A DNA stretch of 64,000 nucleotides from Acidimicrobiia bacterium (GCA_036556085.1 DATBKE010000116.1:2209-66208), one strand, 5' to 3'; counted from the stretch's first letter, positions 15,411-63,800 are shown. A program made the numbers and translations. The notes: generated by a model not told the origin, from the letters alone.

Positions 15411-17489
15411 TCAATCGTTGACGAGCATCATCGCCAAATCCCGGACCCGGACGTCCTCGCCCTTCCCCAACTCTTTGATGCCATCGTCAAGCATCACGTA
15501 ACAGAAGGGACAGGAGACAGCGACCTCACTGGCCCCGGTCGCCAAGGCTTCCTCCGCCCTTTCGATGTTGATTTTCTTGCCGGTGTGCTCTTCCATCCAG
15601 AACCGGGCACCCCCCGCACCGCAGCAAAGGGCCCTGGTGCCGTGACGGCGCATCTCCACTAGCTCTGCGCCAGTCGCCGCCGCCACCTCACGAGGCGCCA
15701 GATAGATGTCGTTGTGCCGGCCGAGGTAGCAGGGGTCGTGATAAGTGGTTTTCCGAGCCGATCCATTGCCACCGAAAGTGATCTGTTGCCGGGTCAGGAG
15801 GTCGGCCAGGAGTTGGGAATGGTGGACGACCTCGTACTCCCCGCCCATCTGCGGATACTCGTTGGCCAGAGTGTTGAAGCAGTGCGGGCATTGCGTGATG
15901 ATCTTCTGCACCCCTCGGGCCGCAAACGTCTCGATGTTCTGAGTCGCCAGCTGCTGCCACAGATACTCATTGCCGGCGCGACGGGCGGGATCGCCGTTGC
16001 AGACCTCGGCGGTGCCGAGGATGGCGAAATCGATTCCGGCCTGGTGCAACAACTTGGCCAACGCGATCGACACGGCCATGTTGCGATCATCGAATGATCC
16101 CGCACAACCGACGAACCAGAGATACTCGGCGCTGTCGGCATCCTCGCCCAGGATCGGAACATGGAAGTCGAGGGCTGCCGTCCAGGACCCGCGCTTTTCC
16201 TTGCTCATGCCCCAAGGATTGCCCTGGTTCTCCATCGCCACGAAGGCCTTCGAGAGCTCGCTCGGAAAGGAGGACTCCATCATGGTCAGGTAGCGACGGA
16301 TGTCGAGGATTCGATCGAGAATCTCGATATTGACCGGGCAGATCTCGTCGCACGCTCGACAAGCGGTGCACGACCACACTTCCTCGGGCCGGACTCTTTG
16401 CATCACGTTGTCCCCGGTGATTTCGATGCCGTCGACAAGGCTCACGGGCGGTGAGACTCCGGCACTGACGGCGGCCACCTCCCCCACCTTGAGAACCATC
16501 TCACGAGGGTCCAAGGGCTTGCCGGTGATGTTGGCCGGACAGACCGCGGTGCAGCGGCCACAAATCGTGCACGCGTCGGTGTCGAAGAGCTGTTTCCAGG
16601 TGAAATCGCTCACCACCGAAGCGCCGATGGTGTCGATGTCTTCGACCTCAGCCAGGTTGACTACCGGCCGCATCGCTCCCTTGGGCCGACCGTGCGGCGA
16701 GAGGAACATGTTCGTTGGGCTCGTCAGCATGTGCCGGAGCTTGGTGGTCGGCAGGATGACGAGAAAGGCCAAGAAAGCGGCGGCGTGCACGATCCACGAG
16801 GTGAGATGAACCGTCCCCGCCGCCGAATCCGGAACTAGGAATGACAGCGGATATCCCACTGCCGACCAGCGCTCGAAGCCAGGACGCCCGTATAGGGCGA
16901 TTCGAGCCGCCTCAGTGGTGAGGCCGGTGACTCCCAGCAACGCCAGCGTGATGAGATTCCACGCATCCTCGGGCTTGGTCTTCGAGCGGAGGCGCCAAGG
17001 CCGCTGCAGGTAGCGGCGAACGAATGCCCAAGCCAGGCCGCCGAGGAACACCAGCGAAGTGAGGTCGAGAATCAGCGAGTACCCGAGATATACCCCGCCC
17101 TCGAGGAATTTGAGGTTGTTGGGTAACAGGTGGTCGATCTCGAGAATGACCGTGCCGGCAAAGAGGATCAAAAACCCGAAATAGATCATCGAGTGCATCA
17201 AGCCGGCCGCCCGATCCCGCAGCAGAGTCTGCATGGAGAGGCCGCGGAAAAGCTGGCGCACTCTCTCTCGCCAACGACCGGACCGGGGATCGCGGGCACC
17301 TCTCTCCCACGATCGCGCACGTAGGAAAAAGAGCGCTCCCGCCAGAGCAATGAAGGCGGCGGTAGTGACGTAGAAGACCGCTTGCAGCCATCCCGGGACG
17401 TTGCCGAACACGACCCGTCCCACCTCGGGTTCGACGACCTCGTGCAAGGTCCCCAGATACCCGAGCAGGACCGCCCCTAGCGCACCCAC
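15411..17489 (-). CDS. membrane-anchored (Fe-S)-binding reductase (HdrD/GlpC/DsrK-like, two 4Fe-4S motifs plus CCG domains)
   Basis: 692 aa. About 6 N-terminal TM helices, CTICGRCTAVCP and CTACRACDEICP ferredoxin motifs, and C-terminal Cys-rich CCG repeats (ALCCGAGG). Confidence 0.85.
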   Translation of the reverse strand: MGALGAVLLGYLGTLHEVVEPEVGRVVFGNVPGWLQAVFYVTTAAFIALAGALFFLRARSWERGARDPRSGRWRERVRQLFRGLSMQTLLRDRAAGLMHSMIYFGFLILFAGTVILEIDHLLPNNLKFLEGGVYLGYSLILDLTSLVFLGGLAWAFVRRYLQRPWRLRSKTKPEDAWNLITLALLGVTGLTTEAARIALYGRPGFERWSAVGYPLSFLVPDSAAGTVHLTSWIVHAAAFLAFLVILPTTKLRHMLTSPTNMFLSPHGRPKGAMRPVVNLAEVEDIDTIGASVVSDFTWKQLFDTDACTICGRCTAVCPANITGKPLDPREMVLKVGEVAAVSAGVSPPVSLVDGIEITGDNVMQRVRPEEVWSCTACRACDEICPVNIEILDRILDIRRYLTMMESSFPSELSKAFVAMENQGNPWGMSKEKRGSWTAALDFHVPILGEDADSAEYLWFVGCAGSFDDRNMAVSIALAKLLHQAGIDFAILGTAEVCNGDPARRAGNEYLWQQLATQNIETFAARGVQKIITQCPHCFNTLANEYPQMGGEYEVVHHSQLLADLLTRQQITFGGNGSARKTTYHDPCYLGRHNDIYLAPREVAAATGAELVEMRRHGTRALCCGAGGARFWMEEHTGKKINIERAEEALATGASEVAVSCPFCYVMLDDGIKELGKGEDVRVRDLAMMLVND

Positions 17490-41500: not shown

Positions 41501-43339
41501 TCATTCTGCCTTCTGTTTGCCCGTCTCGCCTTCGATACCGAGCGTGGTCTCGACCGCCTCGATGGTCTGCCCCCCTTTTGCCACCGGGGCAAAGAGATCT
41601 CCGAACCGGGCGAGGCGGTCCCAGAAGTTGCCGATGTTGAAATCACCGTTGCGGAGGGTGTCGACCTCTTTCCAGGTGATCGGAAAGGAGATCGGAGCTC
41701 CGGGTCGTGGGCGAACCGAGTAGACCGAGGCGATGGTCTGACCGTAGGCGTTGCGGTTGTGGTCGATGAAGACCTTGCCTTTGCGTTTGGGGATGTCCCA
41801 CTCCATGGTGAGATCAGCGGGGTTGGCAGCGACGAGGAGCTTGCCGATTGCTTCCACCAGCCGCCTTACGCGCGAGTGTCGATACTTGGCCTCGATCGGC
41901 ACGTAGACGTGAAGCCCTTTGGAACCGGAGAGCTTGGGATATCCATTCAGGCCCAGTCGGCCGAGCAGTACTTCGAGGAGCTTCGCTCCGGCCACGACCT
42001 GTTCCCACTCCGCCCCTTCGGCTGGATCGAAATCAAAGATCGCTAGATCGGGATGTTCGAGGTTCCCGGCCCGGGAGTGGAAGGGGTGGATCTCGATGCA
42101 GCCCATGTTGGCGAACCACATCAGCGACTCCCGGTTGGAGGCGAGCAGAAAGTCCTGAGCTCCCCCCGACGAGTCCGACGGCACCGCCGCCGTCTCCATC
42201 CAGGCGGGCTGATGTCCGGGTGCCCGCTTCTCGTAAAAGGTCGGACCATTGATGCCGTCCGGATATCGGGACATGGAAATGGGTCGGTCGCGCAAGTGAG
42301 GCAACAACACTGACGACACCGAGGCGTAGTACTGAATGAGATCGCCCTTGGTGAAGCCCTCGGGGAAGAAGGGCTTGTCAAGGTTCGAGAGCTTGAGCGG
42401 ACGGACTCCGGGAACGAGAAGGTTCTTACCGTCCTTCTTCCCCCTGACCTTGGCCGGGAAATCGATCCGGCCGGAGTCGATGTTTCGTCCTTCGCTCTTG
42501 CTGCTCGGTCCCTTGCTGATCGTTTCCTCGAGCTCGTTTTGGATGGCATCGTGGCTTGATTGCTCTCGCGCCTCGGAGATCACCACCATCGACAGCTCGT
42601 CGTGGAGGGCGGCCTCGATCAGCGGTCCGATCCGGAGGGTGCCTTCGCCGTAGGGGAGGTGTCTCACTTCCCCACCGGCGTTGAAGAGGTTGTCGGTGAA
42701 TTGGGTTTGCAGCGGGTCGATCATCCAGCCGGGAAAGCTCCCGCGAATGAAGCCGATAACCGATTCGAATGCTTCGACGCTGGTGAGGGCTCCGCCGGTC
42801 TGGGCGTGGACGTGAGCCCAGTCGACGATCGGCCGGATGAAGCTGAACTCGTCGGCCAGAAGGGCGATATCACCGAGGGTTCCGAAGTTCCGCTCGGCCC
42901 CGCTCGTCTCGAGCCCGAGACCGACCCCCATCTGCTCGATCTTGGGGCTGATCCTTCGCAGTCGCTCCTGGATCATTCCGGTCAACACTTCGGGGTCGCG
43001 GCCCTGGGCGGCACCGAAGTGGGCGCAGATGATGCGACTGCCGAGAGCCCGGCCCAGCTTCATCGTGTGCTCGAGGGCGGCCAGGCATTGTTTCGCCCTG
43101 TCCTCGTCTTCGACGGTGAGTACGGCGAAGTAGGGAGCGTGGACAGATACCCAGATGTCGCGCTCTCGGGCGAGATCGCCGAACCGTTGACATCGCTTCT
43201 CCTTCCAGGGGAAGGCGGTGACGAAGGCGAGCTCGAAAGCGTTGTGGCCCTTCTTGACGAGATCGTCGAGGAACGCGGCGTCGTCTTCCGGTTTGCCGCG
43301 TGGAAGGCCCGAGATCCCGAAGCGAATCTGGGCCGGCAT
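41501..43339 (-). CDS. fusion protein: endonuclease IV-like AP_endonuc_2 TIM barrel + LigD-type primase-polymerase (AEP) domain
   Basis: 612 aa. N-terminal part has SVHAPYF, ICAHFGA, GLETSG, DWAHVHAQTGG, VRHLPYGEGTL, VVISEA. C-terminal part has KLSNLDKPFFPEG, AIFDFDP, SGSKGLHVYVP, FIDHNRNAYGQT. Confidence 0.9.
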   Translation of the reverse strand: MPAQIRFGISGLPRGKPEDDAAFLDDLVKKGHNAFELAFVTAFPWKEKRCQRFGDLARERDIWVSVHAPYFAVLTVEDEDRAKQCLAALEHTMKLGRALGSRIICAHFGAAQGRDPEVLTGMIQERLRRISPKIEQMGVGLGLETSGAERNFGTLGDIALLADEFSFIRPIVDWAHVHAQTGGALTSVEAFESVIGFIRGSFPGWMIDPLQTQFTDNLFNAGGEVRHLPYGEGTLRIGPLIEAALHDELSMVVISEAREQSSHDAIQNELEETISKGPSSKSEGRNIDSGRIDFPAKVRGKKDGKNLLVPGVRPLKLSNLDKPFFPEGFTKGDLIQYYASVSSVLLPHLRDRPISMSRYPDGINGPTFYEKRAPGHQPAWMETAAVPSDSSGGAQDFLLASNRESLMWFANMGCIEIHPFHSRAGNLEHPDLAIFDFDPAEGAEWEQVVAGAKLLEVLLGRLGLNGYPKLSGSKGLHVYVPIEAKYRHSRVRRLVEAIGKLLVAANPADLTMEWDIPKRKGKVFIDHNRNAYGQTIASVYSVRPRPGAPISFPITWKEVDTLRNGDFNIGNFWDRLARFGDLFAPVAKGGQTIEAVETTLGIEGETGKQKAE

Positions 43340-55552: not shown

Positions 55553-55557
55553 CCTGA

Positions 55558-55648
55558 GAACACACACGGGAGCCCCACCTGGGGCTGAGAGGGAGAACCA
55601 CTCCGACCGTAGAAACCTGATCCGGATAATGCCGGCGTAGGGAGGAGA
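55558..55648 (+). promoter_or_regulatory. TPP (THI-box) riboswitch
   Basis: GGGAGCCCCACCTGGGGCTGAGAGGG...ACCTGATCCGGATAATGCCGGCGTAGGGAGGAG contains the CTGAGA and ACCTGATC-GGATAATGCC-GCG cores. The 3' end overlaps the SD (GGGAGGAG) of the thiamine SBP gene. Confidence 0.9.
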
Positions 55649-55651
55649 TCG

Positions 55652-56611
55652 ATGAAGCGACTAGTGCTGTTGGTGGTCTGGGCGGCGACCGCTTTCGGGT
55701 GCGCATCCGACGAACCGGTGACCCTCACTTTGATCTCTCACGACTCCTTCGCCGATGCGGTGACCGAGGAGACCTTCGCCGCTTTCACCTCCGAGACAGG
55801 TGTGGCGGTGGAGGTGCTGGCGGCTGGAGACACCGGAGCCATGGTCAACCAAGCGATCCTCACCAAGGACAACCCGTTGGCCGACCTGCTCTTTGGCGTC
55901 GATGACACGTTCTTGCAGCGCGCGGTCGACGCAGAGATTTTCGGCGGCGAGGTCAGTGCGATTGACTACGGCGACGTCTGCATCAACTACGACCGCGAGG
56001 CGTTTACGACCAGCCCGCCGCCAGAAACGCTCGACGACCTCACCGCCCATGCCAACCAGCTCGTAGTGGAGGACCCGTCGCTCTCCTCACCGGGCCTGGC
56101 ATTCCTGCTCTCGACGATCGACCGCTATGGAGAGGGTTGGGTCGACTACTGGACTACCTTGCGCGACAACGGTGTGCTGGTCGCCCCGGGGTGGTCGGAG
56201 GCCTACTACGGCGAATTTTCGGGCGGGGCCGGAGAAGGTGACCGGCCCCTCGTGGTTTCCTATGCGTCGTCTCCCCCGGCGGAAGTGATCTTTGCCGATC
56301 CTCCGGTGGAAGAACCGCCGACGGCGGTTATGACAGACGGCTGCTACCGACAGACCGAATTCGCCGGAGTCCTGGCCGGGACCGACCACCCTGATGAGGC
56401 AGCAGCGTTGATCGACTTCATGCTCAGCGTGCCATTCCAGGAAACCATTCCGCTCACCTGGTTCGTCTACCCGATCAACAAGGAGGCCGCGTTGCCTCCG
56501 GCATTTGTCGAGAACACGGCGGTGCCGAGCGACCCGGTGCAGATGGATCCGGCCACGATCGATGAGAATCGCGAGCAATGGCTGGAAGAGTGGTCCGAAA
56601 TCTTCGGATAG
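55652..56611 (+). CDS. thiB: thiamine ABC transporter substrate-binding lipoprotein
   Basis: 319 aa with lipobox LVVWAATAFGCAS. TbpA-like pattern (LISHDSF...) and the preceding TPP riboswitch. Confidence 0.85.
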   Translation: MKRLVLLVVWAATAFGCASDEPVTLTLISHDSFADAVTEETFAAFTSETGVAVEVLAAGDTGAMVNQAILTKDNPLADLLFGVDDTFLQRAVDAEIFGGEVSAIDYGDVCINYDREAFTTSPPPETLDDLTAHANQLVVEDPSLSSPGLAFLLSTIDRYGEGWVDYWTTLRDNGVLVAPGWSEAYYGEFSGGAGEGDRPLVVSYASSPPAEVIFADPPVEEPPTAVMTDGCYRQTEFAGVLAGTDHPDEAAALIDFMLSVPFQETIPLTWFVYPINKEAALPPAFVENTAVPSDPVQMDPATIDENREQWLEEWSEIFG

Positions 56612-58119
56612 CGCTCCTCTGGGGGCTACCGCTCCTCTTCATTGGCTATCTCTTCGTTTATCCGCTGACGCGGATTCTGGCCGAGTCGCTCACCGGTGAG
56701 GGCTTCGCCCAAGTCCTCGATCGGGAGCGATTTCGCAACGCCGCCTGGTTCACCGTGTGGCAAGCGGTGGTCTCGACTGTTCTCACCCTGATCGCCAGCC
56801 TCCCACTCACCTGGGCGATATCGCGTTTCAACTTCAGAGGCAAGCAACTCGTTCGCGCATTGGTCACCATCCCCTTCGTTCTTCCGTCGGTGGTGGTGGC
56901 AGCGAGCTTTCTCGATCTGCTGCCGCCCGGAGTGGTCGCCATCCTCGCCGCTCACGTGTTCTACAACGTGGCGGTTGTGGTCCGCACCGTTGGCGGCGTG
57001 TGGAGCAGGATCGATCCCCGAGTGGAGGATGCCGCCGCCACCTTGGGGGCATCACCGTGGCGAGTCTTCCGCTCCGTGACCCTGCCGCTCCTTCGACCCG
57101 CTCTTGCCTCTGCCGCCGCCATCGTTTTCCTGTTTTGTTTCGCCTCCTTCGGCACGGTTCTTATCTTGGGCGGGGGGCGAATTCGAACGATCGAGGTCGA
57201 GATCTACCAGCAAGCGGTGACCTTTCTCAACCTTCCGGTGGCAGGCGCGCTCGCCGTTCTGCAACTGGTCTTCGTGCTGACGGCGCTGGTGGTGGCCAAC
57301 CGGCTGCAGCGCCGGATCGGTGTCGACTTGGCGGCCGAAGTCACCCTCCCGCCCCCCGGCCCTCGACATCGGCTCGCCGTCGCAGCTTCAGTACTCATCA
57401 CGCTGGGTTTTCTGGCAGTGCCCCTGGCATCGCTGGTGAGCAGCTCGATCAGCCGCCGCGGCTGGAGCGGACTGGCGGGCAACGCCGCCAGTGCTCTCAG
57501 CCCCGGGCAGGCGATCGGCAACTCGCTCCTCTACGCGGCGATCGCCACGATCATCGCTACCGGAGTCGGGTTGGCGGCGGCGCGGATAATCGAAAGGCGA
57601 GGGGGAGGATGGCTCGACACCGCTCTCATGCTCCCACTGGGGGTGTCGGCGGTCACGATTGGATTTGGCTTCCTCCTCGCCCTCGACCAACCCTTTGACT
57701 TGCGCGGGTCGTTCATCCTGGTGCCCTTGGCTCACGCGTTGGTGGCAACACCCCTCGTCGTGAGGGCGGCGCTCCCTCTCCTCCGATCGATCAGACCCGA
57801 GCTGCGAGAAGCAGCCCGGGTGCTGGGCGCCTCCCCGGCCCTCGTGTGGAAGGAGATCGACTTTCCGATCATCGCCCGGGCCTTGGCAGTGGGGGCAGGC
57901 CTGGCGGCGGTGGTTTCTCTCGGCGAGTTCGGTGCCACGTCCTTCGTCGCCCGACCCGCGAGTGTCACCGTGCCGACGCTGATCTTCCGCTTGCTCGGCC
58001 GCCCGGGGACATCTTCTTTTGGAACTGCGATGGCCCTGGCGGTGATCCTGGCGGCGATGACCGCCTCGCTGGTGTTGTTGATCGATCGCCTCCGGGGTAG
58101 CGAGGCGGGGACCTTTTGA
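56578..58119 (+). CDS. thiP: thiamine ABC transporter permease (duplicated permease domain)
   Basis: 513 aa with two EAA loops (DAAATLGASPWRVFRSVTLP and EAARVLGASPALVWKEIDFP). Start may be GTG 56590. Confidence 0.85.
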   Translation: MAGRVVRNLRIALLWGLPLLFIGYLFVYPLTRILAESLTGEGFAQVLDRERFRNAAWFTVWQAVVSTVLTLIASLPLTWAISRFNFRGKQLVRALVTIPFVLPSVVVAASFLDLLPPGVVAILAAHVFYNVAVVVRTVGGVWSRIDPRVEDAAATLGASPWRVFRSVTLPLLRPALASAAAIVFLFCFASFGTVLILGGGRIRTIEVEIYQQAVTFLNLPVAGALAVLQLVFVLTALVVANRLQRRIGVDLAAEVTLPPPGPRHRLAVAASVLITLGFLAVPLASLVSSSISRRGWSGLAGNAASALSPGQAIGNSLLYAAIATIIATGVGLAAARIIERRGGGWLDTALMLPLGVSAVTIGFGFLLALDQPFDLRGSFILVPLAHALVATPLVVRAALPLLRSIRPELREAARVLGASPALVWKEIDFPIIARALAVGAGLAAVVSLGEFGATSFVARPASVTVPTLIFRLLGRPGTSSFGTAMALAVILAAMTASLVLLIDRLRGSEAGTF

Positions 58120-58826
58120 TGCTCTCGGTCAGAGACGTCTCGGTCGAATTCGGAGCCAAGGTCGCCCTTGATCGGGTCTCACTCGACCTCGGACAGGCTG
58201 AGATTCTTGCCCTTTTGGGCCCGTCGGGCTCGGGGAAGTCGACCCTGCTTCGGGCCATCGCCGGCCTTGAGGAAATCACCACCGGAACGATCACCTTCGA
58301 AGAGGAGGACTTGGCTGGCGTTCCCACTCACTTGCGCGGTTTCGGCCTCATGTTTCAGACCTATGCCCTCTTTCCGCACCTCACCGTCGCCGGCAACGTC
58401 GCCTTCGGCCTGCGGATGGCCAATCTGGAACCGGCTTCGATCAAGTCCCGGGTCAGTGAGGTGCTCGAGTGGGTGGGTCTGAGCGAACTCGCTAGTCGAC
58501 GAATCGAGCGCTTGTCGGGCGGGGAGATGCAGCGGGTGGCGCTGGCCCGGACCCTTGCTCCCAATCCCCGGCTGGTGATGCTCGACGAGCCGGTAGGCGC
58601 TCTCGATCGGCGACTGCGGGAGCGACTGGTGGAGGACATGGCCGACTCGTTGCGAGAGACAAAGCTGGGAGTGATCTACGTCACTCATGATCACGATGAG
58701 GCGCGGGTAATCGCCGATCGAGTGGCGTTGATGAACAACGGTCGTATCGTCCAGACGGGGACCTATCAGGAAATTGCCGAACGCCCTGCCGACGCCTGGG
58801 TGGCCGACTTCGTCGCCTCCTCCTAG
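58116..58826 (+). CDS. thiQ: thiamine ABC transporter ATP-binding protein
   Basis: 236 aa with Walker A GPSGSGKST, signature LSGGEMQR and Walker B VMLDEP. ATGA-type overlap with thiP. Confidence 0.85.
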   Translation: MMLSVRDVSVEFGAKVALDRVSLDLGQAEILALLGPSGSGKSTLLRAIAGLEEITTGTITFEEEDLAGVPTHLRGFGLMFQTYALFPHLTVAGNVAFGLRMANLEPASIKSRVSEVLEWVGLSELASRRIERLSGGEMQRVALARTLAPNPRLVMLDEPVGALDRRLRERLVEDMADSLRETKLGVIYVTHDHDEARVIADRVALMNNGRIVQTGTYQEIAERPADAWVADFVASS

Positions 58827-61576: not shown

Positions 61577-61605
61577 CTAACCCAGATGATGACTTGCTCT
61601 CCTTT

Positions 61606-61678
61606 GGCCAGGTAGCTCAGTTGGGAGAGCGACGGTCTGAAAAACCGTAGGTCGGCAGTTCGATCCTGCCCCTGGCCA
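61606..61678 (+). tRNA. tRNA-Phe (anticodon GAA)
   Basis: Acceptor GGCCAGG/CCTGGCC, D arm GCTC-AGTTGGGA-GAGC, anticodon stem ACGGT/ACCGT with loop CTGAAAA, T arm GGCAG-TTCGATC-CTGCC, discriminator A. Confidence 0.95.
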
Positions 61679-61740
61679 CCCAAATACCCTCGATGGCCGA
61701 CCTAGCCCAAGAAGCGATTGGGGGCGGGCAAGGAATCGCC

Positions 61741-63009
61741 TCAGGGGTCGCGACCGCTGGTGGTATAGCGATGTCCCGTGGGACTGGTCCATAGGTGATC
61801 GCCCGAGTCAAGCGGTTCGTGTTTCCACCCGCCCTCATGCCGGAGCATGTGATGATGGCGACAGAGGGGGACCAGGTTGCCGACCTCGGTCGGGCCACCT
61901 ACTCCGTAGGGCTGACGATGATCGAGGTCGCAGTTCGAGGCCGGCATCCGACAGCTTGGAAAGACGCAGCGTCGATTTCGAGCCTCGACGAAACGCCTCT
62001 GACTCCTGGTGGGACGGCGCCGGGTGATGCCATTCGCCACTGGTAGACCCGAATCTGGGTCGGTGACGGTAAAACGCCACTCCCCGGCCACCTGCTCGGC
62101 CGCCACCTGACGACAGATGTCGGCGATGACGGGACCGAAGCCTCCAAGCTCGCCGGGGGTCTCGGCCAGGCCGACCAGCGTGGCGAGGTCGACCAGAAGA
62201 TCAATGGTTCCCCTGCCGGTGGCATGGTCGACGACCTTGCCCATCAACAGGTCCAAGAAGACATCGGCTCGGATCTGGTCGAGAGTTCGACCATCGCTTC
62301 CGGCGAGGGAGAAGGCAATCTCAGTGATCCGCCGGAGTGCGGCCACAGCCTCGGGGGCCGCGAGGTCATAGCCCGAAAGGTGAGCCGTTCCCTCCTCGCT
62401 GGCCTCGAGTTCCACCCTCCGCTCGGCCAGGGCCTCTTCATAACGGCGCTGGGCGAGGTCGGGATCCGCTTCCACGCAGCGCTTGCGCAGGTAGGCGGCG
62501 AGCTGGCCCGAGGTCAATTGAGACGCCCGCTCGATCACCTCGGCTGCCAATGGCTGGGCGGTCTCGGGAGGGAGAGAGGCCAGACCCTTCACCAGCACCC
62601 CAGCCCTTCTCCGATCGATCCGTCCCCAGAGGAGGGCCGAGAAGACTGCCGGCAGGGCGAGAAGGCCGGAGGCAAAGGCGAGGTCGAGGGTGGCGGCCCG
62701 ACGCGTGAGCCGGAGGGCAGAGCCGATCTCAGCCTCGGCGGCGCCATAGGCTGCCTCGATGTCCGCGGGATCGGTTTCCTCCTCCCAGGAGCGAGAGATG
62801 GAAACCATGTCCCGATAGACCTGGGCCTGGAAGTGAGAGGCCAGTCGTTGGTGGGCTCGCAAGACCAAGACCCGGTCATAGGAACCGAGCTCGCTGACAT
62901 CGATCGTCGCCAGCACCTGGGCCAGGTCGCAACCGGGAGAAAGCCGGTCCAAATCCTCAGGAAGAACGCTGGTGCTAGTGTTGTAGCTATCGAACATTTG
63001 TACGATCAA
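61741..63009 (-). CDS. DUF222 + HNH endonuclease protein (mycobacterial REP13E12-like family)
   Basis: 422 aa with C-terminal CVFPSCRMPASNCDLDHRQPY...GNLVPLCRHHHMLRHEGGW (HNH). The long helical N-terminal region is typical of DUF222. Confidence 0.85.
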   Translation of the reverse strand: MIVQMFDSYNTSTSVLPEDLDRLSPGCDLAQVLATIDVSELGSYDRVLVLRAHQRLASHFQAQVYRDMVSISRSWEEETDPADIEAAYGAAEAEIGSALRLTRRAATLDLAFASGLLALPAVFSALLWGRIDRRRAGVLVKGLASLPPETAQPLAAEVIERASQLTSGQLAAYLRKRCVEADPDLAQRRYEEALAERRVELEASEEGTAHLSGYDLAAPEAVAALRRITEIAFSLAGSDGRTLDQIRADVFLDLLMGKVVDHATGRGTIDLLVDLATLVGLAETPGELGGFGPVIADICRQVAAEQVAGEWRFTVTDPDSGLPVANGITRRRPTRSQRRFVEARNRRCVFPSCRMPASNCDLDHRQPYGVGGPTEVGNLVPLCRHHHMLRHEGGWKHEPLDSGDHLWTSPTGHRYTTSGRDP

Positions 63010-63122
63010 CCTACAAGACAGCTGGGACAGAATCCATCCCCCTGTCAGAACTTTCTCTGAAGAATCGAGAAGAACTTTTCCGCTTGGCTGGCTCGAGCGC
63101 CTTTCGGGATTAGCGTCGAAAC

Positions 63123-63800
63123 ATGGCCCCCGACGTACGGCTGACCGATCAAGCCGGGAAGCCCTGGGTTCTTGCCGATCATCTTGATGCCGCTGCCTTG
63201 CTGATCTTCCTCCGCGGCGACTGGTGATCGTATTGCAACGGCCAGCTGGTCAGCCTGGCGAGACTCCACCCTCAGTTTCTTGAAGCCGGGACCCGGCTCT
63301 TTGCTATTTCGATCGATTCGCCGAAGCAGAACTCGGCCATGATCGAGAAGTTGTCGTTGCCCTTCCCCTATCTCTCCGATCCTGATCGGTCCCAGGCGAT
63401 CACACCCTTCGGAGTGGCCGACGAAAAAGACGAGCGCAACATCTCGCGTCCGGCCCTAGTGGTGCTGACCGCCGATGCCAAGGAAGCGTTCCGTTTCGAA
63501 TCACGGGACTTCGCTGACCGGATGCCCGAAGAAGACGTGCTGGCGACCGTCCGAGCACTCGGTTTTCCGGCGACGACTCAGGAGCCTCCAGAAGTCGGTC
63601 CTGCCAAGGCCGGGCCCCGGACCCTCAGCCTTCGCGAACTGAAGGTGTATTACCGGGGAGCTCGCTTCGCTGCCCAGGCCATGGGGCTACGGCATGCGCA
63701 CTACGCCGATGAAATCAAGGTCGACTCGAAGGCCTTCGTGGCAGAGATGGATCGCTACACCGCAGCCATCGAATGGCTCGAAAGGCTCAACTCGAAGTAG
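63123..63800 (+). CDS. redoxin/peroxiredoxin-like thioredoxin-fold protein with in-frame TGA at the active site (selenoprotein candidate or pseudogene)
   Basis: ATG 63123 is in frame with track ORF 63339-63800. Hand translation gives MAPDVRLTDQAGKPWVLADHLDAAALLIFLRGDW-TGA-SYCNGQLVSLARLHPQFLEAGTRLFAISIDSPKQNSAMIEKL... The TGA (63225-63227) occupies the first Cys position of the WCxxC motif. Confidence 0.6.

What the first reader, a model, noticed from the sequence alone, without database searches (positions are those of the whole stretch)
63123..63800. In-frame TGA exactly at the first Cys of the CxxC motif of a redoxin: selenocysteine candidate
Seen in sequence:
- The track ORF 63339-63800 begins at an internal Met of a thioredoxin-fold protein.
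- The same frame is open back to ATG 63123, which is immediately preceded by an in-frame TAG. It is interrupted by a single TGA at 63225-63227.
- The translation reads ...AALLIFLRGDW-[TGA]-SYCNGQLVSLARLHPQFLEAGTRLFAISIDS..., so the TGA sits where redoxin/AhpC-TSA-like proteins have the resolving WCxxC cysteine.
- Thirteen nt downstream there is a GC-rich hairpin, GCCAG-cuggucagc-CUGGC (63241-63259), with GGU in its loop. The loop begins 19 nt after the UGA. As far as I recall the bacterial SECIS rules, this spacing and loop are compatible, but the stem is only 5-6 bp.

Established knowledge: UxxC thioredoxin-fold and Prx-like selenoproteins are a recurrent class of bacterial selenoproteins, and Sec almost always replaces a catalytic Cys.

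Alternative: a TGC/TGT-to-TGA nonsense mutation, giving a pseudogene. The gene sits next to a selfish HNH gene.
Basis: partly seen in the sequence, partly recalled or inferred. Interest (0 to 1): 0.75.

Follow-up and report, generated by a model that had tools for sequence, protein, structure and literature searches.

The report
Selenocysteine peroxiredoxin-like redox gene, mis-annotated
The in-frame TGA is real and almost certainly encodes selenocysteine in a thioredoxin-like UxxC redox protein of Acidimicrobiia bacteria; this kind of selenoprotein is already known, but gene callers cut this one short in every database entry I looked at.

Summary
One 225-codon frame (63123-63800) is interrupted only by TGA 63225-63227, giving RGDW-U-SYC.

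It is not a pseudogene.
- All 28 homologous loci examined carry TGA at the same column. They come from at least 21 species, mostly Acidimicrobiia, down to 53% identity.
- The 31 codons upstream of the TGA are under purifying selection (dN/dS 0.14).
- More distant full-length homologues have Cys at that column (RGDWCPYC).
- TGA is an ordinary stop in 7 of 14 confident window genes, so the codon is not reassigned.

The hairpin at 63241-63259 has 7 bp, one bulged C and a GGUC tetraloop that starts 20 nt after the UGA. It meets all four published bacterial SECIS constraints. Its synonymous sites are nearly frozen in the Sec forms but vary freely in Cys forms that encode the same peptide.

Weak points:
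- Covariation is minimal.
- Folding energy is no better than that of shuffled sequence.
- The Sec machinery could not be checked, because no sel genes or tRNA-Sec lie in the window.

The gene fits the known "Prx-like thiol:disulfide oxidoreductase / Prx-like 1" selenoprotein class (PF00578, UxxC). Here it carries a C-terminal two-helix extension with no Pfam or PDB match.

Verdict: a genuine selenoprotein gene, a new member of a known kind, of modest interest.

The parts
63123..63800 (+). Complete selenoprotein coding sequence of 225 codons: ATG 63123, Sec-UGA at codon 35, stop TAG 63798-63800.
   Evidence: Translation. Full-length collinear homologues in 28 loci. Pfam AhpC-TSA at 1.8e-21.
63111..63113 (+). 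In-frame TAG that bounds the ORF upstream. ATG 63123 is the first start codon after it.
   Evidence: Sequence.
63225..63227 (+). In-frame TGA, the predicted selenocysteine codon (U35) and first position of the UxxC redox motif.
   Evidence: TGA at this column in 28 of 28 loci. It aligns with an invariant Cys in the Cys-form homologues (alignment A2). The upstream 31 codons have dN/dS 0.14.
63234..63236 (+). TGC, Cys38, the second residue of the UxxC motif. It is equivalent to the peroxidatic Cys position of peroxiredoxins.
   Evidence: Invariant in A2. It aligns with the Cp of PrxQ 2cx3. The codon is TGC in 24 of 24 Sec forms.
63241..63259 (+). Predicted bacterial SECIS hairpin: GCCAGCU / GGUC loop / AG-(C bulge)-CUGGC.
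   Evidence: RNAfold and RNAalifold both predict it. 98% of cells are paired in 23 distinct sequences, with one compensatory G-C to A-U change (L024) and several G-C/G-U changes. Synonymous sites are frozen in Sec forms but not in Cys forms. It meets the bSECIS constraints quoted in PMC13188914.
63248..63251 (+). Apical tetraloop GGUC of the hairpin (GGCC in one clade). It starts 20 nt after the UGA.
   Evidence: G24, G25 and C27 are invariant in alignment A3. The loop of the E. coli fdhF SECIS also contains GGUC (my own recollection, not tested here).
63123..63560 (+). Peroxiredoxin/thioredoxin-fold domain (residues ~1-146).
   Evidence: AlphaFold2 model with pLDDT 96.9. Foldseek matches Bcp4 3hjp, AhpE 1xxu and PrxQ 2cx3 at rmsd 1.4-2 A over ~147 residues. 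The PDB profile search gives E = 4e-18.
63630..63791 (+). C-terminal two-helix hairpin extension (residues ~170-223, motif YFRGARFAAxAxGLRH...DSKAYVAEMDRY). It has no Pfam match.
   Evidence: Helices H170-191 and H196-223 in the model. This part is not covered by any PDB match or by Pfam. It is shared with the Cys-form homologues, in which Y176 and R190 are invariant.
63339..63800 (+). The 153-aa ORF that gene callers report. It is an annotation artefact that starts at internal Met73.
   Evidence: The same truncation, to 153 or 179-183 aa, occurs in 119 of the 120 best database homologues.

Best explanation
63123-63800 encodes one 225-residue selenoprotein. UGA 63225-63227 is recoded as selenocysteine. 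This is directed by a small stem-loop 13 nt downstream (63241-63259; 7 bp, bulged C, GGUC tetraloop) that would be bound by SelB carrying Sec-tRNA(Sec).

The protein has a peroxiredoxin-fold domain with a thioredoxin-type U35-x-x-C38 motif at the N-terminus of helix alpha1, followed by a C-terminal two-helix extension.

Inferred chemistry: the selenolate of U35 attacks an oxidised substrate, either a disulfide or possibly a peroxide. C38 then resolves the intermediate into an intramolecular selenenylsulfide, which a cellular thiol reductant recycles.

What is shown: the reading frame, the conservation of the TGA, the Sec/Cys pairing, the fold, and the conserved hairpin. What is inferred: actual Sec insertion, SelB binding, the substrate and the reductant.
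For: 1. The TGA sits at the identical column in 28 of 28 loci: the window, L001-L021, L023, L024/L025 and L108-L111. These come from 21 GTDB species representatives, mostly Acidimicrobiia plus Euzebya and OM1, and reach down to 53% protein identity.
2. The 31 codons before the TGA have mean dN 0.22, dS 1.55 and ratio 0.14, with no stops in any sequence. They are therefore translated in that frame.
3. None of the 120 closest database proteins is a Cys form. 119 start after the TGA. The single 225-aa entry (P0007) has 'W' there, which is a TGA called under genetic code 4.
4. Full-length homologues at roughly 50% identity or less carry RGDWC[PSA][YFW]C, and Cys aligns with the TGA column.
5. TGA terminates 7 of 14 confident genes in the window, so there is no codon reassignment.
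6. For the hairpin, 98.1% of pair cells are standard pairs, against 45% or less when the partners are slid by 1-3 columns. There is one compensatory change and 15 one-sided G-C/G-U changes.
7. Codon entropy at codons 38-44 is 0-0.76 bits, against a typical 1-2 bits elsewhere in the gene.
8. In 36 Cys-form genes that encode the same CNGQL peptide, the Gly, Gln and Leu codons vary freely: GGG in 21/36, CAA in 10/36, CTC in 17/36. In the Sec forms they are GGC in 22/23, CAG in 22/23 and YTG in 23/23 (Fisher p = 2.7e-6, 0.038 and 2.9e-6). These p values treat related sequences as independent, so they overstate the significance. The Cys forms also lack the 3' arm of the hairpin.
9. All four published bSECIS constraints are met: a 3-9 nt loop with a 4-16 bp stem, G in the first two loop positions, a 16-37 nt spacing (here 20), and MFE of -7.5 kcal/mol or lower (here -8.9).
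10. The AlphaFold2 model (pLDDT 96.9) puts residue 35 immediately before helix 36-47, as in thioredoxin-fold CxxC proteins.
11. UxxC Prx-like selenoproteins are an established class (PMC1088965, PMC2398784, PMC13188914). A preprint reports that all 84 complete genomes of Actinomarina, a genus of the class Acidimicrobiia, carry selA, selB, selC and selD.
Against: - No selA, selB, selD or tRNA-Sec was found in the 64-kb window or in ~595 kb of related loci. This is uninformative for whole genomes, but it leaves the decisive prerequisite untested.
- True covariation is minimal. Only one double change was seen, and the column shuffles reach the observed score in ~200 of 500 trials. The structural claim therefore rests on conservation, which could in principle reflect another nucleotide-level constraint.
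- The region does not fold more stably than shuffled sequence (z = -0.09).
- In several homologues the hairpin alone is weaker than -7.5 kcal/mol, ranging from -2.8 to -6.5.
- There is no Rfam match.
- No experimental evidence for Se incorporation exists for this family.
Confidence: 0.9

Rival explanations
1. Pseudogene. A TGC/TGT-to-TGA nonsense mutation inactivated a redoxin gene, perhaps in a decaying region next to a mobile HNH gene.
For: There is a single premature stop at a Cys codon position. The neighbouring HNH/DUF222 gene is a variable insertion.
Against: The same TGA is present in 28 of 28 loci from at least 21 species. None has a further frame disruption, and dN/dS is 0.14 upstream of the TGA. 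L024 lacks the HNH gene but keeps the TGA gene.
Confidence: 0.01
2. Termination at the UGA, with the downstream part translated separately from an internal start. This is what the databases annotate: a 153-183-aa AhpC/TSA-like protein plus a 34-aa peptide.
For: Gene callers produce exactly this split. Internal ATG, TTG or GTG codons exist.
Against: - The downstream product would lack the CxxC motif, strands beta1-beta3 and the start of helix alpha1 of the fold.
- The internal start positions are not conserved: the called proteins are 153, 167-169 or 178-184 aa long.
- The upstream 34 codons always stay in the same frame, contiguous with the rest, and under purifying selection.
- The Cys-form homologues are single continuous proteins.
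Confidence: 0.03
3. UGA is read through as a standard amino acid (Trp, Cys or Gly) by near-cognate decoding or a suppressor tRNA, not as Sec. The conserved downstream sequence would be a read-through stimulator.
For: The Sec machinery was not demonstrated for the source genome. The hairpin is small and thermodynamically unremarkable.
Against: - The codon sits exactly at the catalytic Cys of a CxxC motif, the classic Sec/Cys pair.
- The hairpin position and the GG-containing loop fit the bSECIS model.
- TGA is a normal stop elsewhere in the window.
- If Cys were inserted, nothing would hold TGA in place of TGC/TGT across a whole class-level clade.
- At least one genus of the class Acidimicrobiia is reported to have complete Sec machinery.
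Confidence: 0.05

Closest known systems
Prx-like thiol:disulfide oxidoreductase, also called the 'Prx-like 1' selenoprotein family (PF00578, UxxC). Described by Kryukov/Zhang/Gladyshev; the reference protein in PMC13188914 is WP_010940744.1. There were 22 sequences in the Sargasso Sea survey and 225 in the GOS survey.
   Same: [quoted passage not shown] Cys-containing homologues exist. The SECIS-like hairpin has G in its apical loop.
   Different: This clade is actinobacterial (Acidimicrobiia, Euzebya). No Cys form was seen at 53% identity or above. It carries an ~85-residue C-terminal linker and two-helix extension that has no Pfam or PDB match.
PrxQ/BCP and AhpE peroxiredoxins (PDB 2cx3, 3hjp, 1xxu).
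   Same: These are the closest solved structures, with rmsd 1.4-2 A over ~147 residues. The second Cys of the UxxC motif aligns with their peroxidatic Cys.
   Different: The Pro and Thr/Ser of the PxxxT/SxxC signature are replaced by Arg31 and Sec35. The position that aligns with the catalytic Arg is a near-invariant Pro110. These structures also lack the C-terminal helical hairpin.
SelL-related redox proteins (NCBIfam NF040769) and vertebrate selenoprotein L (UxxU).
   Same: This is the best NCBIfam match (E = 1e-10). They are also Prx-like proteins with a Sec-containing xx-spaced redox pair.
   Different: The score of 41.5 bits is far below the family cut-off of 120, so this protein is not a member.
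E. coli fdhF SECIS, the archetypal bacterial SECIS.
   Same: It is a hairpin that starts ~11-13 nt after the UGA, with one bulged nucleotide in the upper stem and GGUC in the apical loop. The fdhF details are from my own knowledge. The general bSECIS constraints are from PMC13188914.
   Different: The element here is much shorter. There is no consistent lower stem across homologues, the bulge is on the 3' side, and the loop is a tetraloop. One clade has GGCC instead of GGUC.

Membership tests
Bacterial selenoprotein gene (Sec-UGA with bSECIS) | An in-frame UGA that aligns with Cys in homologues (a Sec/Cys pair). | tested here: met
   In alignment A2, the column of U35 is an invariant Cys in P0123, P0125, P0128, P0134, P0135, P0141 and P0169. 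The 70 distinct Cys-form loci have TGC or TGT there.
Bacterial selenoprotein gene (Sec-UGA with bSECIS) | Protein-level conservation on both sides of the UGA in the same frame, across species. | tested here: met
   Seen in 28 of 28 loci. Upstream dN/dS is 0.14.
Bacterial selenoprotein gene (Sec-UGA with bSECIS) | A stem-loop just downstream of the UGA that meets the bSECIS model: 3-9 nt loop, 4-16 bp stem, G in the first two loop positions, 16-37 nt spacing, MFE of -7.5 kcal/mol or lower. | tested here: met
   The window element has 7 bp plus a bulge, a GGUC loop, a spacing of 20 nt and an energy of -8.9 kcal/mol. It is conserved in all homologues. Caveats: some homologues fall below the energy threshold, covariation is minimal, and z = -0.09 against shuffles.
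Bacterial selenoprotein gene (Sec-UGA with bSECIS) | selA, selB, selC (tRNA-Sec) and selD present in the same genome. | not testable with these tools
   None was found in the window or in ~595 kb of fetched loci. Indirect support only: a preprint reports full Sec machinery in all 84 complete genomes of Actinomarina, a genus of the class Acidimicrobiia.
Bacterial selenoprotein gene (Sec-UGA with bSECIS) | Experimental selenium incorporation. | not testable with these tools
   This needs 75Se labelling or mass spectrometry.
Prx-like thiol:disulfide oxidoreductase / Prx-like 1 selenoproteins | A PF00578 (AhpC/TSA) domain. | tested here: met
   E = 1.8e-21 and 76.8 bits against a cut-off of 26.
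Prx-like thiol:disulfide oxidoreductase / Prx-like 1 selenoproteins | A thioredoxin-like UxxC motif rather than TxxU. | tested here: met
   The motif is W-U-S-Y-C. U aligns with the Ser/Thr of T/SxxC in PrxQ, and C aligns with its Cp.
Prx-like thiol:disulfide oxidoreductase / Prx-like 1 selenoproteins | Sequence relationship to the described reference members (for example WP_010940744.1). | not tested
   The reference sequence could not be retrieved with these tools.
Canonical peroxiredoxin (PrxQ/BCP type) | The PxxxT/SxxC active-site signature plus a conserved catalytic Arg. | tested here: not met
   Pro is replaced by Arg31 and Thr/Ser by Sec35. The position aligning with the catalytic Arg of 2cx3 is a near-invariant Pro110.
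NCBIfam NF040769 SelL-related redox protein | A score at or above the curated cut-off of 120 bits. | tested here: not met
   The score is 41.5 bits.

The most novel reading that the evidence does not exclude
This may be a distinct subfamily of Prx-like UxxC selenoproteins that is always Sec-containing and spans the class Acidimicrobiia (with Euzebya). It would be defined by a C-terminal two-helix module with no Pfam or PDB match, and by an unusually small SECIS whose sequence is frozen (7 bp, GGYC tetraloop). That element could represent the minimal recognition site of actinobacterial SelB. Public annotation appears not to record the family as a selenoprotein, because every close database entry is truncated.
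Probability: 0.4. Interest if true: 0.4.

Novelty: new member of a known kind. Interest (0 to 1): 0.3.

Why it matters
- **Annotation.** It corrects a systematic error. 119 of the 120 closest database entries lack the catalytic UxxC and the first 45-72 residues, and the remaining entry has a spurious Trp. Any functional or structural inference drawn from those entries is therefore wrong.
- **Selenium biology of the lineage.** The gene marks Acidimicrobiia as selenium-using organisms. They are abundant in soil, freshwater and marine habitats.
- **SECIS model.** It provides a compact, highly conserved SECIS that could serve as a lineage-specific model for finding further actinobacterial selenoproteins.
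- **Limits.** It does not change the general understanding of Sec decoding or of Prx-like selenoproteins.

Tried and rejected
- **Sec genes in hand.** I searched for selA, selB and selD using the E. coli proteins and tblastn, and for tRNA-Sec using ARAGORN, in the window and all fetched loci. Nothing was found. This says nothing about the rest of the genome.
- **Rfam.** A permissive-threshold scan of 63100-63400 gave no match. Bacterial SECIS elements are poorly represented in Rfam.
- **Other selenoprotein genes, first scan.** I looked in the window for in-frame TGAs flanked by coding-like sequence. This found only adjacent genes that happen to share a frame.
- **Other selenoprotein genes, second scan.** I searched for TGA plus a GG-loop hairpin. 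This gave dozens of chance hits in GC-rich, non-coding frames and nothing else recurrent, so the hairpin pattern alone is not specific.
- **Metagenome scan.** The scan was seeded with RGDWC[PSA][YF]C, so it returned only Cys forms. I used them as the negative control rather than as extra Sec forms.
- **A longer lower stem.** An extension (UUGCA...UGCGA) folds in L006-L010 but not in the window clade, so I rejected it as a conserved feature.
- **Gene neighbourhoods.** Six contigs were examined. There is no conserved partner gene and no sel gene nearby, so the gene stands alone.
- P0007 was used instead.

Full report
**1. The observation**

- The frame that starts at ATG 63123 is bounded upstream by TAG 63111-63113, three codons before the ATG.
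- It runs to TAG 63798-63800 and contains a single stop, TGA 63225-63227.
- The translation is MAPDVRLTDQAGKPWVLADHLDAAALLIFLRGDW*SYCNGQLVSLARLH...
- With Cys substituted for the stop, Pfam AhpC-TSA matches residues 2-118 (E = 1.8e-21) and Redoxin matches at 8.9e-12.
- The 153-aa ORF 63339-63800 that a gene caller would report starts at an internal Met.
- The complementary pentamers GCCAG (63241-63245) and CUGGC (63255-63259) are present.

**2. Is the TGA a lesion or a conserved feature?**

The database proteins point to a conserved TGA.
- A search of 5.8 billion proteins returned 324 relatives. Of the best 120 (57-100% identity), 119 cover only 65-80% of the query and are 148-194 aa long. They begin after the TGA.
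- The one 225-aa entry, P0007, has Trp at the position. Its DNA (L108) has TGA there, so it was called under genetic code 4.

The genomic loci confirm it.
- A scan of one genome per GTDB species found 21 full-length loci. Nineteen are Acidimicrobiia-type MAGs, one is Euzebya and one is binned as Kiloniellales. Three lie on complete ~3-Mb chromosomes.
- All 21 have TGA at the same column, with the N-terminal ~34 codons in frame and recognisably conserved.
- Seven further loci obtained through exact-protein look-ups show the same.
- That makes 28 of 28 loci, with identity down to 53%.

Two further checks close the alternatives.
- Across 25 sequences, the 31 codons upstream of the TGA have dN 0.22, dS 1.55 and ratio 0.14. 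This segment is translated in this frame.
- TGA is the stop codon of 7 of 14 confidently identified genes in the window. The organism has not reassigned TGA.

The pseudogene explanation and the split-gene explanation are therefore untenable.

**3. The Sec/Cys pair**

An exhaustive HMMER search of 1.84 billion cluster representatives with P0007 found 2,314 relatives. Those that cover the N-terminus are continuous proteins with RGDWC[PSA][YFW]C: P0123, P0125, P0128, P0134, P0135, P0141, P0169 and others, at roughly 31-49% identity.

In alignment A2 the TGA column is an invariant Cys, and the second Cys (C38) is invariant throughout. This is the classic signature of a selenoprotein family with Cys homologues.

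**4. The downstream RNA element**

Structure. RNAfold and RNAalifold agree on a hairpin (numbering with the U of UGA as 1):
- The pairs are G17-C35, C18-G34, C19-G33, A20-U32, G21-C31 (or C30), C22-G29 and U23-A28.
- One C is bulged, and the apical loop is G24-G25-U26-C27.

Conservation of pairing.
- In 23 distinct sequences, 98.1% of pair cells are standard pairs. When the 3' partners are slid by 1-3 columns, the figure is 2-45%.
- Variation is almost entirely structure-neutral: G-C to G-U at 21-31 (8 sequences), C-G to U-G at 22-29 (5), and U-G at 18-34 (1).
- There is one true compensatory change. In L024, CAG became CAA and CTG became TTG, giving A21-U31.
- Because there is so little variation, the column-shuffle control is not significant. 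About 200 of 500 shuffles reach the observed score. I therefore do not claim covariation support.

Synonymous-site suppression is the stronger argument.
- In the 24 Sec-form genes, codons 38-44 (TGC AAC GGC CAG CTG GTC AGC) have codon entropies of 0-0.76 bits. Four- and six-fold degenerate codons elsewhere in the same gene typically show 1-2 bits.
- The third positions just outside the stem (N15 and N36) vary freely.

The Cys forms serve as the control.
- The metagenome scan happened to return only Cys forms.
- In 36 distinct Cys-form genes that encode the same CNGQL peptide, Gly is GGG in 21, Gln is CAA in 10 and Leu is CTC in 17.
- In the Sec forms these are GGC in 22/23, CAG in 22/23 and YTG in 23/23 (Fisher p = 2.7e-6, 0.038 and 2.9e-6).
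- These p values treat related sequences as independent, so they overstate the significance.
- The Cys forms also lack the 3' arm: codon 45 is Tyr.
- Local folding energy is lower in the Sec forms, -8.5 against -5.8 kcal/mol.

Fit to the published model. The window element meets all four constraints of the bacterial SECIS model as quoted in PMC13188914:

| Constraint | Required | Here |
|---|---|---|
| Apical loop | 3-9 nt | 4 nt |
| Upper stem | 4-16 bp | 7 bp |
| G in first two loop positions | at least one | GG |
| UGA-to-loop spacing | 16-37 nt | 20 nt |
| MFE | -7.5 kcal/mol or lower | -8.9 kcal/mol |

Caveats.
- The 60 nt after the UGA fold no better than dinucleotide shuffles (z = -0.09).
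- Several homologues have weaker hairpins, from -2.8 to -6.5 kcal/mol.
- Rfam has no match.
- A generic TGA-plus-GG-loop hairpin search is non-specific in this GC-rich DNA.

**5. What the protein is**

Fold.
- AlphaFold2 on a 30-sequence alignment gave a confident model: pLDDT 96.9, pTM 0.92.
- It has a peroxiredoxin/thioredoxin fold over residues ~1-146, with residue 35 immediately before helix 36-47. A linker follows, then two long helices (170-191 and 196-223).
- Foldseek against the PDB matches only the first ~147 residues. The best matches are Bcp4 3hjp (rmsd 1.4 A), AhpE 1xxu and PrxQ 2cx3/4gqf.
- The PDB profile search agrees: 2cx3 at E = 4e-18.

Active site.
- In that alignment, W-U-x-Y-C pairs with F-S-P-V-C of PrxQ.
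- Sec therefore occupies the Thr/Ser position of the peroxiredoxin T/SxxC signature, and Cys38 occupies the peroxidatic position.
- The signature Pro is Arg31. The position that aligns with the catalytic Arg is a near-invariant Pro110.
- The protein is thus not a canonical peroxiredoxin. It is a Prx-fold protein with a thioredoxin-type redox pair.
In thioredoxin-type motifs the N-terminal residue is the attacking nucleophile (established knowledge).

Other features.
- The C-terminal helical module has no Pfam match but is shared with the Cys forms, in which Y176 and R190 are invariant.
- The best NCBIfam model is SelL-related redox protein, far below its cut-off at 41.5 against 120 bits.

**6. 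Mechanism**

Shown: one continuous, conserved reading frame with a conserved UGA at a catalytic Cys position and a conserved downstream hairpin.

Inferred from established knowledge of bacterial Sec decoding:
- SelB carrying Sec-tRNA(Sec) binds the GGUC loop and upper stem while the UGA is in the ribosomal A site, and inserts Sec.
- The selenolate attacks an oxidised substrate, either a disulfide or possibly a hydroperoxide.
- Cys38 resolves the intermediate to a selenenylsulfide, which a cellular thiol system reduces.

The substrate, the reductant and the role of the C-terminal helices are unknown.

**7. Context**

- The gene stands alone. Its neighbours differ between lineages, and no sel gene or redox partner is consistently adjacent.
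- In the window clade it follows tRNA-Asp and tRNA-Phe.
- The HNH/DUF222 gene between tRNA-Phe and the selenoprotein gene is present in L001, L002, L009 and L023 but absent in L024. It is a variable insertion, unrelated to the TGA.

**8. Comparison with the literature**

- "Prx-like 1 (pfam00578, UxxC)" had 225 sequences in the GOS survey (PMC2398784).
- [quoted passage not shown] is listed as predicted with high confidence in a 2026 review (PMC13188914). Earlier genome surveys found it mainly in Deltaproteobacteria (PMC1794560).
- Sec machinery in Acidimicrobiia is documented for Actinomarina in a 2026 preprint.

The finding is therefore a new, systematically mis-annotated member of a known kind. 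Its lineage-specific features are an actinobacterial clade in which every member seen is a Sec form, a C-terminal helical extension, and a compact frozen SECIS.

**9. What remains open**

Whether the source genome encodes selA, selB, selC and selD could not be tested. This check and direct detection of Sec are the decisive missing pieces.

Overall I put 0.9 on a genuine selenoprotein gene. Interest is 0.3.

Noticed in passing
window 55556-55661 (+), with ORFs 55652-56611, 56578-58119 and 58116-58826 (+): A TPP riboswitch (Rfam RF00059, 66.2 bits) lies directly upstream of a three-gene ABC importer. The homologues of these genes in L023 carry SBP_bac_1, BPD_transp_1 and ABC_tran. This is probably a thiamine-regulated thiamine or precursor uptake operon.
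   Followed up: partly
window 41501-43339 (-): A 612-aa protein fuses an AP_endonuc_2 / xylose-isomerase-like TIM barrel (aa 25-267) to a LigD primase-polymerase domain (aa 330-583). This may be an uncommon domain combination for a non-homologous end-joining (NHEJ) polymerase module; I did not check how common it is.
   Followed up: no
window 61741-63009 (-), between tRNA-Phe 61605-61682 and the selenoprotein gene: The HNH endonuclease / DUF222 gene is a variable insertion next to the tRNA-Asp/tRNA-Phe pair. It is present at the same place in L001, L002, L009 and L023, and absent in the otherwise syntenic L024.
   Followed up: partly
window 63284-63298 (+): A terminator-like hairpin (AGCCGGGACCCGGCT followed by CTTTGCTATT) lies inside the selenoprotein coding sequence, ~60 nt after the UGA. 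It is probably a chance match, and it is only partly conserved in homologues.
   Followed up: no
L109 9863-9973, L110 9818-9922, L108 582-1259: Public gene calls split the selenoprotein into a 34-36-aa stub plus a truncated main ORF. In one JGI record the gene was called under genetic code 4, producing a spurious Trp at the Sec position.
   Followed up: yes
window 15411-17489 (-): A 692-aa Fe-S oxidoreductase with two CCG domains and 4Fe-4S dicluster motifs (GlpC/HdrD-like). It belongs to a family that includes selenoproteins elsewhere, but no in-frame TGA is seen here.
   Followed up: partly
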